Position numbers: made by a program
Shown: positions 33,001 to 39,000 of the stretch, in pieces
Position numbering within the stretch: the first letter of the stretch is position 1
Layout: each line of letters opens with the position of its first letter
NCBI GenBank assembly: GCA_037379345.1
Contig: CM074513.1
Coordinates: 53,981,195 to 54,045,194 of the forward strand
Reading direction: 5' to 3'
From: Perna viridis
Lineage: Eukaryota
DNA: 64,000 nucleotides

Positions 33001-36000
33001 TATTTTATTCTTCTTTTTAAACCCAATTAGAACACTGGTTAACCATCAGACAGACTTTCTACATATTTCTTATGTTAACTAACAAAAAATTAAGGACGAT
33101 AGCATGTGAGGAAAATAAATAATCAAACTGTATCATTTAAGTGGGTTCTCAATTATATCAGGACCTCCATAATTCAATTTCATGAGCTCCTCAAATATTT
33201 CTGGGCTTCAATAATTTAATTTCTGGATCTCTGTAAAAAAAACTTATTTATGGTAGTCCTGAAATAATATGAGGATCTCAAGTAATGATAATTTTGACTA
33301 ATTCCATGCCTTATATTCATACCTCTAATATCAGTGAGGTTCCTCTCAGCACCTTTTCTAAGAAGGAACTCACAGACTTCTTTTCTTCCTCTATTAGCAG
33401 CACCCATCAAAGGAGTCCTGAAAAAACATGACATACAAGTATATGCTTATGACACTAATAGAAATAAATTACAAATTATCAGTAAATGACTTTCATATAT
33501 TTCCTTAAGTAATATGTTGATTCAGATTTTATATCATCAACAAACATCTCCTATATAAGCCAATCAATGAAATCAATGCTGTTTATTGAATCCAAATGAA
33601 AGGATAATTTCAGGTGGAAGAAGAATAAAGATATTTAACCCGAGCCCAAAGAACATATGTAATTTATTCCAGAGGTACATACATTTATGAACTACTGCAT
33701 TGTTCCATTGTACATTTTTTTTTCAATTATTCCACTTTTAGAATTAGTTTACATTCTACAATGAGAATTGGTGGACACAAAAATATTCTAACTGTTACAC
33801 ATAACAGTATTAAACCAAATATATGATTAGGATAATTATTGACTCTAGAAACCATTTAGTTTTCTCCTACAACTTAAATTATGCCAATGTTTCTCAATTT
33901 CAAATTAATTGATTATGACAAACAAATGGTCCTTTTATCTTCATCACATTCACGATCTCTACTGAATACTGTTAATCAATTCATTTTTGTTGTTTCAGAT
34001 ATAAATTATTTACTCTCTGTGACTAATATTCTGTTTCACATGTATACCATAGGAAAGGGAGTTATTTGCCACAATTCATTTACCAATATTTTCTTGCTTG
34101 CAAGATAATTGAAAATAAATCACTCCCATAAGCAAGTTTTTTTTTTCCAGTCAATCATATCTCAATTAAAACAGTTGATACTTACATTTGATTATTATCA
34201 ACACAGTTGATATTGGCACCTTTATCTAAGAGGTCTTTACATATTCCTACTTGTCCTGCCATTGAAGCATAAAACAAGGCAGTTCTGCCAGTCTAAAAAT
34301 ACATGACAAAATGCATTGTAGTTAGAGTATCATCTGTGTGTCTAGTTTTACTTTGGTTTGACTTAACACATACTTCACTTTTCATACTCAAACAATTCAT
34401 GTACATTGCTGAAAAATATCAAATTTATTTGTTCGAGCTTAAAAAACAGTCCCATTGTGAGTTTATACGGATCAATTATTTTTCACTGCCTGTACAACTG
34501 AATTTGATATTTTCCAATGTAGTACATGTATTGCTTTTATCCTGCAAATGTATTTCATTGTGAGAAATCTATGTAGAAAAAAAGATGATAATTCATATAA
34601 TTGTTATGCTACCATAAAACTAGTCACCTGTATGTCTACTTAAGGTTTTACTCAAAATCAAAAAGGTAATCAGGAGACTATATTATGCAATATTTGTACT
34701 AAACAAAAACAGCAATGGTTTATTCAACACCATGTATTTGAATAGTAGAACGCCCAGTTGCGGGATAAATAGGGTTAAGACAACATGTGATTTAAAAGAA
34801 AAAGATATGAAAAAATTTTTTCAAAATAATGCAAATTTCTCTCATATCTGAAAATGAAAGCACCTTTGTCTATGACAATCAGATATTATTTAACATTATC
34901 AGTTCATTTGAAGAATTTAGTGATGTACTGGGTGCTGTGGTATTATTATTATAATTTTCCATGTAAATCAGAGTTTTCCAAGAAAAAAAAAAACAGACAA
35001 TAGAAAGAAAAAGCTTTCTTGCTTTCATGATAGTATGGTGGGTTATTTTGGCAGGTGTAAAATTCGGCAAATTTTAGGCAAAACAGTATGCAAAAAACTT
35101 TGGCAATTCTAATTTTGGCAGAAGTTGTGCTTTATGTACCTAAGCTCAGAGTAAATATTTTACAGAATTCGTTTTGGCATTTTCAGACAGACAGCTAAAT
35201 TACGCCTAAATTAGCATCAAGCGAAAATTACGCATTATACGGTATGCAAACTAACCTGGTCACCCATCGAAAAGTCAGCACCATTTGCAAGAAGAATTTG
35301 AACACATTCATGGTAGCACCCCATACATGCATGGTGTAAAGCAGTTAGCTGTTGACCATCCTTCACATTTAGCTCTGCTCCAGCCTGTAATTAAAACATG
35401 TCAATATAAAATCAAGAAAAAAATGTACCCTAATAAAACATAAACCCATGCATGACGGTAACAGAGGAAAAGTAAAGCAAGACAAAAAGGAATTTTGAAC
35501 TAGTAGTTGTAAAAAGCATTATTTTTTTACATTTTCAATTCATGTTCATTCTTCTTTGTGAAAAAAAAATGATGAAAACATGAACAATTATCTTTAAAAA
35601 AAATTGAACTCTTTAAACCATAACAAATAAACAAGTGTCTTAAACACTAAAAACTGAATTATTAAATAAATAAGCAAAAAGTATGCCTGATAAAACATAG
35701 AAATACATTTTTATGGTAAATGCAAATGAACTGCCTTATTCAGAAATATATATATATATATCAGGTATATGAAAAACTTGTATCTATACCTTGGTGAGAG
35801 TGTTAACAACATTTGCCTGACCAGATCCAGAGGCTAAGTGTAATGCAGTAGATCCTACAAGTATAAAACAAATGTAACATCTTCATTCCTGCCAATTGTA
35901 ATTATGGTGGCCTTACTTAATAGTGGTGTTGTTCAATTAAAAAAAAAGATTACAGCTCAAACTTAAAAGCTGGATGTGAATTTTTAATACTTCAACATCC

Positions 36001-39000
36001 TTACTACCTGCTGATTATATCAATATTTACCTGCTCCAGTTAACTTTACACTTCACTCTTCTTTTGGGAAAAACATACCATAAATATTGTAAATTATCAA
36101 TGACAGGTTACCGGTACTGTATTTCTGAACACTACCACTAAAAATCATATTATGTTTGCAAAAACTTCTCTCTTCAAATTCATATTTTCAAAATACAATT
36201 TTTTTTGTACCTTGAATAGTAAGACTATTGACTTCAGCACCATAGTCAAGTAGCTTTTCCACAATGGCTTCAAATCCATATCTACTTGCTACATGAAATC
36301 TGGAAGAAAAGAAAAAAAAAGTAGTATTAATGGTTTTAATAAAGCCACACAAATACCTGAGGCAGATATAATACAAGATGTAATGTGACTGACTTTTTCT
36401 TTTCTGACCCAGTCTTTTCTCAAAGAGCTTGAATTGCTATTCTGGAAAAATTAAAAATCTGGGGCCACATTATTTGATCTAGCAGAAAAAAATCATTATC
36501 AAATATTTCATCTACAGTGGCCCATCCGTACACCTCTGGAGATTTCTGTCGACCTTATCATAAGGATCATTATAGCAACTAAATTTTCTTTCTATATGTT
36601 ATGGTTTTCAAGATATTACAAGAGTAAAAAAAAAAGAAAGTTTTTGCCTTTCAAGGGCAATAACTCTAAAAAGGAGTCATCCTACAACCTAAATTTGATA
36701 TTTTTCAGCAATGTACATGAATTGTTTGAGTATGAAAAGTGAAGTATGTGTTAAGTCAAACCAAAGTAAAACTAGACACACAGATGATACTCTGACTACA
36801 ATGTATTTTGTCATGTGTTTTTAGACTGGCAGAACTGCCTTGTTTTATGCTTCCATGTCTGGTCTTTGTCCCTGAATTACACTCTTTTGATTACCGCTAT
36901 AGCCTTGGTATCCTTGATTACTCTTTGACCAATGAAGACATTTTTATGCTTTATCATAATGATCATTTCATTACTGAAGGTGTCTTATTATCTATCTTGG
37001 TTTTAAGTTGTTTTTTTTAAGTAAAACGCTTGTGAGGCAGGATCAGCAAGTTATCACTAATATTTACATATATACCAGTTAACAAGACACCACAAGTTCA
37101 GATGATTTTTTTTCTACTTACATAGAAAAACCATGAATGCCGAGTTTTGTAGGGTTGATAGTTTTTTTCTGTAGAATAGATTCTACTCTTGAGAGGTCTC
37201 CATTCTCCACAGCCTTTAGTATCTTGTCATCTCCTTTATTCCATTCTGATAACTGAAAAAAAAGGAATATTATTTGTTTTTATCTTTCTATCTCACTATT
37301 ATCTTTCTACCTCTTTTGAACAATCTAAAAATCATTGCAATCCAACAATCAAAGTCTTATGTTTTATCATTAATAGTATCTGACTTGAAGTGTATAGATT
37401 GTACAAGTGACATACATCACATTGTTGTAACAAAATTTAAACAACGTTATATAAAATATCAAAACTTACTCTCTTCTCAGTTAACTAATTTTTTTCTACA
37501 TTAGTTTAGATTTCTGAAGAATTTCATTAATTTAGAAAAACCTGGTTTGCCTGCCATTGACATATTGTTACATTTTGTATAACAACTTACATCAGTGGTA
37601 CTTTTTCCAAACTTTTTGAACAAACTGAACTTCTTAAGTTTACTCTTTGACATGATGACAAATTATAGATCCTTCTTGTAATATCTGCACTTCATTCTAA
37701 AACCAGAATCTGAAATGACAGTAGAGTGTGCTTATTTATGTTTAATTGGTCGTTCATCTCCAACAATCAACAGTAAAAAAAAAAAAACAACAACAACAAA
37801 TCATATGTAAACACTTAAGTATATACGTCTTTACTTTATAAATACCAATTAGAGGGTCTAATTACATCCTTTAAATACATCAGTGCCATTAATGCTGGAT
37901 AGAGTCTACAATCATAAATACATCAGTGCCATTAATGCTAGATGGAGTCTACAATCATAAACACACCAGTGCCATTAATGCTGGATAGAGTCTACAATCA
38001 TAAATACATCAGTGCCATTAATGCGGGATAGTTTCTACAATCATAAATACATCAGTACCATTAATACGGGATAGAGTCTACAATCATAACACACCAGTGC
38101 CATTAATGCTGGATAGAGTCTACAATCATAAATACATCAGTGCCATTAATGCTGGATAGAGTCTACAATCATAAATACATCAGTGCCATTAATGCTAGAT
38201 GGAGTCTACAATAATAAACACACCAGTGCCATTAATGCGGGATAGATTCTACAATCATAAATACATCAGTACCATTAATACGGGATAGAGTCTACAATCA
38301 TAAATATACCAGTGCCATTAATGCTGGACAGAGTCTACAATCATAAATACGTAAGTGCCATTAATGCTGGATAGAGTCTACAATCATAAATACACCAGTG
38401 CCATTAATGCTGGATAGAGTCTACAATCATAAATACACCAGTGCCATTAATGCTGAATAGAGTCTACAATCATAAATACATCAGTGCCATAAATGCTGGA
38501 TAGAGTCTACAATCATAAATACACCAGTGCCATTAATGCTGGATAGAGTCTACAATCATAAATACATCAGTGCCATTAATTGCTGGATAGATTCTACAAT
38601 CATAAATACATCAAGACAAGTAATACTGGATAGATTCTTCATTTTTTGCCAACCAAAACAATTTGGGTTTTATAGTCATTGTGTTGTAAATGTAATTAAT
38701 TGTAAGTTACAAGAATTCAGTTTCCTAACAGTAATGTACAGTATATGCAGTGACCTCTTTTTTTTCGTAAGTTATTCAGAAATATTTTATGCATGTACAT
38801 CACCATTTTCAATTAAAACAATGTAAATCAGATTCAAGCACATCTTTAAGACAATTCAACTTTACACATCTTTGCTTTTGTGTACCATGACAGTAAAGAT
38901 GTTTTCTATAAATCTTGTCCTTCTCTCGTCAGACCAAGCTGGTATACGTTTGTACATGTATAGTGTAATGATGCTGTCTTCTGCAGCACTTTGATTTTCA

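What the first reader, a model, noticed from the sequence alone, without database searches (positions are those of the whole stretch)
34264..36926. Inverted copy of an ankyrin-exon splice acceptor fused to a Penelope-like 3' end
Seen: 36690-36853 is the reverse complement of 34264-34427 (164 bp, 3 mismatches). It covers the branch/polypyrimidine region, the AG and the first 29 nt of exon 34186-34292. It runs straight into the terminal ~75 bp of the Penelope-like element through the shared sequence TTC(C/A)ATG. Inference 1: this is the footprint of RT template switching from element RNA to nearby genomic DNA, or microhomology-mediated templated insertion. Inference 2: in the pre-mRNA the two arms can form a ~160-bp duplex that loops out three ankyrin exons and masks this acceptor, which could drive skipping of the 107-nt exon (frameshifting), back-splicing of exons 36299-35256, or A-to-I editing.
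Basis: partly seen in the sequence, partly recalled or inferred. Interest (0 to 1): 0.7.

Follow-up and report, generated by a model that had tools for sequence, protein, structure and literature searches.

The report
Retroelement stub with captured splice-site copy
A mussel ankyrin-repeat gene carries, in one intron, a tiny retrotransposon remnant fused to a backwards copy of the gene's own downstream splice site, a known kind of copying accident whose effect on splicing is possible but untested.

Summary
36690-36853 is the reverse complement of 34264-34427: 164 nt, 3 mismatches, BLAST E 1e-78, and the only such pair in the window.

- **Source arm:** the last 135 nt of an intron plus the first 29 nt of a conserved 107-nt ankyrin exon. 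The gene is ankycorbin-like/ANKRD24-like, on the minus strand, in a mytilid mussel.
- **Junction:** the copy runs through TTC(C/A)ATG straight into the 3'-terminal 75-97 nt of a 5'-truncated Penelope-like element. The element is of the Naiad type, with an N-terminal GIY-YIG domain.
- **Orientation:** read in the element's sense, the captured piece is in the sense of the host gene. That is the layout expected if the reverse transcriptase jumped from element RNA onto host pre-mRNA, or onto the sense DNA strand. The two templates cannot be told apart here.
- **Against a standard insertion:** no target-site duplication was found. None of 4 other element fragments in the window shows local capture.
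- **RNA pairing:** the arms are predicted to pair at -266 kcal/mol, enclosing three exons of 283 nt in total and covering the branch site and acceptor of the 107-nt exon.

Exon skipping, circular RNA and editing are plausible but untested. Overall this is a new instance of known phenomena, of modest interest.

The parts
34264..34427 (-). Source arm: last 135 nt of the intron (34293-34427, including putative branch site CTAAC at 34325-34321, polypyrimidine tract and AG) plus the first 29 nt of exon D
36690..36853 (+). Inverted copy of the source arm. It lies in the intron between exons U1 and A. On the + strand it reads as the host gene's sense sequence.
36851..36857 (+). Junction overlap TTCCATG. 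The host has TTCAATG; element copy B has TTCCATG. TTC is shared exactly.
36851..36947 (+). 3'-terminal fragment of a Naiad-type Penelope-like element, in + orientation. 36851-36925 is shared with copies A and B. 36926-36947 is shared with copy A only and may be the optional 'tail'.
   Evidence: PMC8557442 and PMC11167929 passages
34186..34292 (-). Exon D, 107 nt, one ankyrin repeat. Conserved in Mytilus ankycorbin-like / ANKRD24-like proteins at residues 160-195.
35256..36299 (-). Span holding the three exons enclosed by the arms: A 36299-36211 (89 nt), B 35854-35790 (65 nt), C 35384-35256 (129 nt), 283 nt in all. All have GT-AG sites and are in frame.
37122..37245 (-). Exon U1 (124 nt), upstream of the intron that holds the insert. 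95% identical over 40 aa to M. edulis ankycorbin-like.
43710..44394 (-). Reference copy A of the same element family: the end of the RT ORF plus about 300 nt of 3' UTR. Used to orient and delimit the fragment at 36851-36947.
6208..6533 (-). Reference copy B of the element's 3' region. It carries TTCCATG at the position of the junction.
34390..34536 (-). Local hairpin in the source intron (RNA MFE -43.2 kcal/mol, z -5.8). The copied tract ends at 34427, inside its 3' arm.

Best explanation
A Naiad-type Penelope-like retroelement began to insert, antisense, into the intron upstream of exon A of an ankycorbin-like gene in a mytilid mussel. Reverse transcription started at the element's 3' end, at the 36947 side. 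After about 100 nt the growing cDNA end paired through TTC, or 6 of 7 nt of TTC(C/A)ATG, with the sense strand of the same gene about 2.4 kb downstream, 29-33 nt into exon D. The second template was most simply the unspliced nascent pre-mRNA, or alternatively displaced sense-strand DNA. Synthesis continued for 164 nt into the intron before the product was joined to the upstream target end. The result is a 258-bp insert, 36690-36947. Its left part is an antisense copy, relative to the host gene, of the exon D 3' splice region. In the pre-mRNA the two arms can form a 164-bp duplex that encloses exons A-C and covers the branch site, polypyrimidine tract, AG and first 29 nt of exon D. What is shown: the repeat, the junction, the orientations, the element's family, the gene model and the predicted pairing. 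What is inferred: the single-event origin, the RT template switch, RNA as the second template, and any effect on splicing. That effect is probably partial, because the upstream arm's intron can be removed before the downstream arm is transcribed.
For: - **Repeat and junction:**. Only one such pair exists in 64 kb.
- **Orientation:** copy A's ORF lies on the minus strand and its 3' UTR ends at 43710. 36851-36947 is the reverse complement of 43710-43809. The fragment is therefore + sense with its 3' end at about 36947. The captured tract on the + strand equals the host's minus, sense strand.
- **Element family:** the 111-aa ORF of copy A hits 3816 proteins at E<=1e-5. It aligns at 67% identity just C-terminal to the RT of a longer relative. 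Of 6 long relatives scanned, 5 show RVT_1 and 2 (P0035, P0095) show an N-terminal GIY-YIG; all these hits are below Pfam's curated cut-offs. P0035 and P0095 carry DKA and CxC strings and resemble the published Naiad_Mgal N-terminus by eye. Rfam finds no ribozyme or other RNA family in the window, which agrees with Naiads lacking canonical hammerheads (PMC8557442, abstract and passages).
- **Published PLE traits (passages read):** frequent 5' truncation, an optional 30-40-bp tail, inverted structures, intron retention, trans-mobilisation of intron-containing host genes, microhomology-mediated 5' junctions without a target-site duplication, and proposed template jumps (PMC8557442; PMC3846280; PMC11167929).
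- **LINE-1 chimeras:** they place the second RNA 5' of a 5'-truncated element, mostly in sense (bioRxiv 10.1101/2025.02.02.635956, passages).
- **Host gene and exons:**
- **Duplex:** -266.1 kcal/mol, against -27.8 and -33.9 for the arms alone. 161 inter-arm pairs appear in the minimum-energy fold of 2751 nt.
Against: - No target-site duplication of 6 nt or more flanks 36690-36947.
- The left junction shows no clear microhomology.
- The element's true 3' terminus rests on only two other copies, whose ends differ by about 22 nt.
- 0 of 4 other element fragments in the window have locally templated sequence at their 5' flank.
- Sense co-orientation has a 50% prior, so it is weak evidence.
- Nothing separates an RNA from a DNA second template, or an RT from a repair polymerase.
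- The GIY-YIG and RVT_1 matches in relatives are sub-threshold, and the window copies are too truncated to test directly.
- No presence/absence or expression data are available.
- A search with the ORF spanning the junction found no relatives, so nothing is known about other assemblies.
Confidence: 0.55

Rival explanations
1. DNA-level templated repair or replication switching (MMBIR/FoSTeS, or synthesis-dependent microhomology-mediated end joining). A broken or stalled 3' end, possibly the end of an aborted element cDNA or of an older element stub, invaded nearby DNA at microhomology. A cellular polymerase copied 164 nt of the opposite strand before rejoining. No RNA second template is involved.
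For: The template lies in cis only 2.3-2.6 kb away and the copy is inverted. There is short microhomology at the junction and no target-site duplication. The source tract ends inside a strongly folding local inverted repeat. I saw only search listings and abstract openings of papers linking microhomology, templated insertions and secondary structure to such repair (PMC8421209, PMC2943611, PMC5728401).
Against: The element piece appears to run to the family's natural 3' end, as target-primed reverse transcription predicts and random DNA copying does not. The junction is seamless, which favours one continuous synthesis. From recall, not from a call, polymerase-theta insertions are usually much shorter than 164 nt.
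Confidence: 0.3
2. Two unrelated events: an old 5'-truncated element stub, and a later inverted duplication that happened to land exactly at its 5' edge.
For: The stub is only 83-84% identical to the other copies, while the arms differ by 1.8%. The stub could therefore be older than the duplication.
Against: It requires a coincidence of breakpoints to the nucleotide, with shared bases at the join. Divergence between element copies reflects subfamily differences and not insertion age. Gene conversion between arms could also keep them similar.
Confidence: 0.1
3. Assembly artefact, such as a chimeric or fold-back read.
For: Published text notes that complex PLE insertions cause assembly problems (PMC8557442 passage).
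Against: The arms differ at 3 positions and lie 2262 nt apart. The sequence between them is unique and carries three exons in the order, strand and frame of the Mytilus orthologues. There are no N runs.
Confidence: 0.04

Closest known systems
Naiad clade of Penelope-like elements (N-terminal GIY-YIG EN plus C-terminal RT; Craig et al. 2021, PMC8557442)
   Same: The window's repeat family encodes the C-terminal end of an RT ORF. Its full-length relatives have an N-terminal GIY-YIG, CxC and DKA strings and a YIDD RT. All copies are 5'-truncated. There is no hammerhead. The 3' end is variable in a tail-like way. The paper's supplement lists Naiads for mytilids.
   Different: No pseudo-LTR, tandem copy or inverted element copy is present at this site. 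The inverted partner is host sequence and not the element. The window copies lack the diagnostic N-terminal parts.
Chimeric retro-insertions made by RT template switching (U6/LINE-1 and mRNA/LINE-1 chimeras; tripartite chimeras in Magnaporthe, PMC2104539)
   Same: A 5'-truncated element 3' end is fused directly to a second sequence placed 5' of it in the same sense (passages; PMC2104539 and PMC4476161 seen as listing and abstract opening only).
   Different: The element is a PLE and not a LINE. The second template is an unspliced intron-exon piece of the gene being inserted into, 2.4 kb away, and not an abundant small RNA or spliced mRNA. No target-site duplication and no poly(A) are present.
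Penelope-mediated capture of intron-containing host genes and proposed template jumps in Adineta vaga (PMC3846280)
   Same: Host sequence with an intron retained is associated with PLE ends. A microhomology-mediated 5' junction without a target-site duplication is described there (passages).
   Different: There, whole genes are framed by pseudo-LTRs and target-site duplications. Here a 164-nt fragment is fused to a 97-nt stub.
Intronic complementary sequences (e.g. inverted Alu pairs) that promote back-splicing and are ADAR and DHX9 substrates
   Same: Reverse-complementary tracts flank a block of internal exons with intact splice sites (PMC8391333 passages).
   Different: The downstream arm is not purely intronic: it includes the next exon's branch site, acceptor and 29 exonic nt. 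The arms are a unique local duplication and not a repeat family. No circular RNA or editing has been observed.

Membership tests
Naiad-type Penelope-like element | RT of PLE type | tested here: inconclusive
   The window ORF 44118-44450(-) has no Pfam hit. It matches 3816 proteins and aligns just after the RT of a longer relative. 5 of 6 long relatives show RVT_1, all below the curated cut-off. A YIDD string is seen in P0035 and P0095.
Naiad-type Penelope-like element | GIY-YIG endonuclease at the N-terminus (permuted order) | tested here: inconclusive
   Seen in 2 of 6 relatives scanned: P0035 residues 71-111 and P0095 residues 129-169, E about 1e-3 and below the cut-off. The window copies are 5'-truncated and lack this region. 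By eye these N-termini resemble the Naiad_Mgal consensus in the paper's supplement.
Naiad-type Penelope-like element | CxC motif and DKA in place of DKG | tested here: met
   Strings DCSC/DCTC and VVPADKAPNN were read in relatives P0035 and P0095. The motif definitions come from a PMC8557442 passage. These are relatives, not the window copies.
Naiad-type Penelope-like element | No canonical hammerhead ribozyme | tested here: met
   0 Rfam matches at gathering score in the whole window.
Naiad-type Penelope-like element | Pseudo-LTRs, tandem/inverted element copies, optional 30-40-bp tail | tested here: inconclusive
   There is no tandem or inverted element copy at 36851-36947. Copies A and E extend about 22 nt beyond copy B's end, which is tail-like.
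RT template-switch chimeric insertion | Element part reaches the element's 3' terminus and is 5'-truncated | tested here: met
   The alignment of three 3' ends shows similarity to copy A ending at 36947 and to copy B at 36925. Resolution is limited to two comparison copies.
RT template-switch chimeric insertion | Second template lies 5' of the element part, in the same sense, with a direct junction | tested here: met
   with strand logic
RT template-switch chimeric insertion | Target-site duplication flanking the whole chimera | tested here: not met
   No direct repeat of 6 nt or more lies at the flanks. PLE insertions without a target-site duplication are described (PMC3846280 passage).
Inverted-repeat-driven back-splicing / splice-site masking | Stable complementary tracts flanking exons that have intact splice sites | tested here: met
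Inverted-repeat-driven back-splicing / splice-site masking | Observed back-splice junction, exon D skipping or A>G clusters in RNA | not testable with these tools
MMBIR / microhomology-mediated templated insertion | Microhomology at the switch points and a nearby template | tested here: inconclusive
   The right junction has 3-7 nt of overlap. The left junction has none that is clear. The template lies 2.3 kb away in cis.

The most novel reading that the evidence does not exclude
Penelope-like reverse transcriptases inserting into a transcribed gene can jump onto that gene's own nascent, unspliced pre-mRNA. That would write antisense copies of splice sites into upstream introns. If recurrent in bivalve genomes, where Naiads reach thousands of copies, this would be a retroelement-driven source of long intragenic dsRNA. 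Such dsRNA would act as built-in antisense splice blockers, circular-RNA drivers and ADAR substrates. It would also be sequence-level evidence that PLE insertion is coupled to host transcription.
Probability: 0.12. Interest if true: 0.65.

Novelty: new member of a known kind. Interest (0 to 1): 0.33.

Why it matters
The way Penelope-like elements insert is still poorly understood. The first in vitro system dates from 2024 (PMC11167929). A clean junction between an element's 3' end and an unspliced piece of the target gene is a small natural record of what the polymerase did after starting. The insert also makes a testable splicing case: a 164-bp intramolecular duplex masks a constitutive acceptor, and skipping that exon shifts the frame of a conserved ankyrin/coiled-coil gene. 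As a single locus without population or RNA data, it remains a curiosity rather than a discovery.

Tried and rejected
- **Rfam, whole window at gathering thresholds:** 0 matches, so no hammerhead or other known RNA.
- **Target-site duplication search around the insert:** the only hit was an irrelevant 6-mer.
- **Local capture at other element 5' flanks:** 0 of 4 flanks of 250 bp each. The positive control recovered the known tract. The 5' ends of copies C and D may be interruptions rather than true truncation points.
- **Protein-database search with the 74-aa ORF spanning the junction (36796-37017):** meant as a proxy for the insert's presence in other assemblies. One candidate, none significant. 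This is uninformative, because such non-coding ORFs are rarely predicted.
- **Pfam on the window's element ORFs:** no family. Identification had to go through longer relatives.
- **Editing of an RNA template:** two of the three arm mismatches are A>G in gene sense. I rejected this as evidence, because three transitions carry no weight and the sites lie outside the only pre-existing local hairpin.
- **Hairpin as a polymerase roadblock:** rejected. The copy ends after the 3' strands of the helices have already been traversed.
- **Published Naiad consensus 3' end:** sought in the supplement of PMC8557442. Sequences there are cut in the held text and hold proteins only. My DNA strings and C-terminal protein strings were not found. 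The uncut supplement could settle the element's true 3' terminus.
- **Not possible here:** comparison with other haplotypes or sister species. RNA-seq tests were also impossible.
- **Exon handling:** the spliced gene model was examined exon by exon only. The joined coding sequence was not built or searched.
- **Species:** the contig is not human. Its closest named proteins are from Mytilus.
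Full report
**Observation**

The inverted repeat exists as described. The repeat finder reports arms 34255-34427 and 36690-36862, 173 nt, 97% complementary, 2262 nt apart. BLAST gives 168 nt at 97.6%, E 1.45e-78. Laid side by side, the clean tract is 34264-34427 against 36690-36853: 164 nt with three mismatches, all transitions. In gene sense they are A>G at 34323/36794, C>T at 34313/36804 and A>G at 34300/36817. A self-comparison of the whole window finds no third copy. 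The tract is therefore a local duplication and not a dispersed repeat. The window has no N.

**Host gene**

The region lies in a minus-strand gene.
- A single-exon search with 37124-37243 (40 aa) returned 6 proteins at E<=0.001 among 12 candidates. They include 'ankycorbin-like isoform X2 [Mytilus edulis]' at 95% identity and 'ankyrin repeat domain-containing protein 24-like [Mytilus californianus]' at 93%.
- tblastn of those six proteins against the window maps them exon by exon from about 37252 down to 15796. Per-exon identities to the two named Mytilus proteins are mostly 42-100%.
- The window thus comes from a mussel related to, but not identical with, those species. It is not human.

Exons near the finding all have GT-AG boundaries and continuous reading frames:

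| Exon | Coordinates | Length |
|---|---|---|
| U1 | 37245-37122 | 124 nt |
| A | 36299-36211 | 89 nt |
| B | 35854-35790 | 65 nt |
| C | 35384-35256 | 129 nt |
| D | 34292-34186 | 107 nt |
| E | 33417-33323 | 95 nt |

- Pfam finds ankyrin repeats in the translations of A, B, C, D and E taken singly. Exon D matches Ank positions 2-33 of 33, E 2.8e-8.
- Exon D corresponds to residues 160-195 of the Mytilus proteins. It is a conserved coding exon and not transposon-derived sequence.
- I searched the model exon by exon only. The joined coding sequence was not built or searched.
- The source arm is thus 135 nt of intron 3' end plus the first 29 nt of exon D.
- A CTAAC at 34325-34321 places a likely branch adenosine 30 nt upstream of the exon, inside the arm. 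That reading of the branch consensus is my own and not a tool result.

**The adjoining repeat**

36851-36947 matches two other places in the window in reverse orientation: 43710-43809 at 83% and 6208-6282 at 84%.
- The copy at 43710-44394 carries, on the minus strand, the end of an ORF followed by about 300 nt of untranslated sequence ending at 43710.
- The fragment at 36851-36947 is therefore in + orientation with its 3' end near 36947.
- The 111-aa ORF piece has no Pfam match of its own. It hits 3816 proteins at E<=1e-5 and aligns at 67% identity just C-terminal to the RT region of an 849-aa relative.
- Of six long relatives scanned, five show RVT_1. Two full-length ones (P0035, 934 aa; P0095, 994 aa) also show a GIY-YIG domain near the N-terminus. 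All of these hits are below Pfam's curated cut-offs.
- Their sequences contain the strings DKA and CxC and a YIDD motif. Craig et al. give N-terminal GIY-YIG, CxC and DKA as diagnostic of the Naiad clade (PMC8557442, passages).
- By eye their N-termini resemble the Naiad_Mgal consensus printed in that paper's supplement. The supplement also lists Naiads for Mytilus coruscus, M. galloprovincialis, Gigantidas and Modiolus.
- Rfam finds nothing in the window, in line with Naiads lacking canonical hammerheads.

The caveat is that the diagnostic domains were seen only in relatives, because every copy in the window is 5'-truncated.

**The junction**

- The host sequence reads TTCAATG.
- Element copy B reads TTCCATG and copy A reads TTCCAAG.
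- The junction at 36851-36857 reads TTCCATG.

The C at 36854 therefore comes from the element. The certain overlap is TTC, or 6 of 7 bases if a mismatch is allowed.

At the other end, similarity to copy B stops at 36925 and similarity to copy A at 36947. That difference resembles the optional 30-40-bp 'tail' described for PLEs. The tail has been traced to two alternative internal RT start sites (PMC8557442 passages; PMC11167929 main text). With only two comparison copies this is suggestive and not firm.

No direct repeat of 6 nt or more flanks 36690-36947, and the left junction shows no clear microhomology.

**How it most likely arose**

Read in the element's sense, the insert is 5'-[host gene sense, intron-exon D]-[element 3' end]-3'. 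This is the layout of chimeras formed when a reverse transcriptase starts at an element's 3' end and then continues on a second template.
- In LINE-1 chimeras the second RNA sits 5' of a truncated element, mostly in sense (bioRxiv 10.1101/2025.02.02.635956, passages). PMC2104539 and PMC4476161 were seen only as listing and abstract openings.
- PLEs in particular are reported to retain introns and to mobilise intron-containing host genes.
- They are also reported to form 5' junctions by microhomology without a target-site duplication, and to undergo template jumps (PMC3846280 and PMC8557442 passages).

I therefore favour one event (confidence 0.55). Target-primed reverse transcription ran for about 100 nt of Naiad RNA, then switched at TTC(C/A)ATG onto the sense strand of the host gene and copied 164 nt.

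The sense orientation fits unspliced nascent pre-mRNA tethered at the locus. It fits displaced sense-strand DNA equally well, and the orientation had an even chance of arising anyway.

Evidence against, or missing:
- No target-site duplication was found.
- 0 of 4 other element fragments in the window show local capture at their 5' flanks.
- No other genome could be examined.

Rivals:
- **DNA-level microhomology-mediated templated repair or replication switching (0.3).** It explains the cis, inverted, nearby template. It explains less well why the element piece ends at the family's 3' terminus.
- **Two independent events (0.1).**
- **Assembly artefact (0.04).** This is disfavoured by the three mismatches and by three correctly ordered, in-frame exons between the arms.

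**What it could do**

In the pre-mRNA the upstream arm is the complement of 36853-36690 and the downstream arm is 34427-34264.
- ViennaRNA gives -266.1 kcal/mol for the duplex, against -27.8 and -33.9 for each arm alone.
- In the minimum-energy fold of the 2751-nt stretch 36900-34150, 161 base pairs join the arms.
- The loop holds exons A, B and C, 283 nt in all.
- The duplex covers the putative branch site, the polypyrimidine tract, the AG and 29 nt of exon D.
- 107 is not a multiple of three, so skipping exon D shifts the frame.

This geometry matches the intronic complementary sequences that bring a downstream donor and an upstream acceptor together for back-splicing. Such sequences are unwound or edited by DHX9 and ADAR1 (PMC8391333, passages). 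ADAR homologues and hyper-editing in bivalves are reported (PMC6651903 and PMC9044936, seen as listing and abstract openings only).

None of this is tested here. The 822-nt intron holding the upstream arm can be spliced out before the downstream arm, 2.3 kb further on, is transcribed. Any effect is therefore likely to be partial; this is my inference. The insert has persisted long enough to gather 1.8% divergence, which also argues against a severe defect, although gene conversion between the arms could hide its age.

**Verdict**

The origin by template switching is the best reading but rests on one locus. The splicing consequences are plausible and testable but unsupported by data. Template-switch chimeras, complex PLE insertions and inverted-repeat effects on splicing are all established. 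This is a new instance combining them, most notable for a captured piece that is an antisense copy of the host gene's own acceptor. Interest 0.33.

Noticed in passing
34390-34536: An imperfect 43-nt inverted repeat forms a strong local RNA hairpin in the intron upstream of exon D (MFE -43.2 kcal/mol, z -5.8, 0 of 200 shuffles as stable). The duplicated tract ends at 34427, at the apical end of its 17-bp inner helix. It could be a small MITE-like palindrome. Any link to the breakpoint is unproven.
   Followed up: partly
34321-34325 and 36794: The putative branch-site motif CTAAC of exon D lies inside the duplex. One of the three arm mismatches (A at 34323, G in the copy) falls in it, giving an A-C mismatch next to the presumed branch adenosine in the predicted dsRNA.
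   Followed up: no
37872-38638: A tandem array of a 43-bp unit, 17.8 copies at 90% matches, lies in the intron upstream of exon U1. Other arrays lie at 24003-24535 (27 bp), 32252-32462 (51 bp), 54442-54992 (33 bp) and 63771-64000 (60/121 bp).
   Followed up: no
3406-3496 and 30832-30960: Two self-complementary palindromes, 80% and 83% identity to their own reverse complement, appear in the window self-BLAST. The second lies within the ankycorbin-like gene's span.
   Followed up: no
44714-45013 (-) and 45588-45983 (+): A LINE-like RT fragment lies directly beside the 5' end of element copy A. Its RVT_1 hit is weak (E 0.048) and I recognised its motifs by eye. A 131-aa ORF nearby on the other strand has no Pfam match. 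This looks like a nest of retroelement debris.
   Followed up: partly
7294-11043 (+): A single uninterrupted 1249-aa reading frame lies on the opposite strand, downstream of the ankycorbin-like gene's 3' end. It is serine- and lysine-rich and was not searched.
   Followed up: no
43685-43912 (-) and 36796-37020 (+): The element's 'untranslated' 3' region stays open in one frame in two copies, with similar peptides (LVFVPGLHSFDY... and LVFVPELHSFDY...). Whether this reflects a second small ORF, a conserved RNA or chance was not examined.
   Followed up: no
36400-36690: The left flank of the insert contains strings that, from memory only, resemble common bivalve interspersed repeats. No other copy exists in the window, and its nature was not tested. 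If it is a repeat, its consensus could define the insertion point.
   Followed up: no
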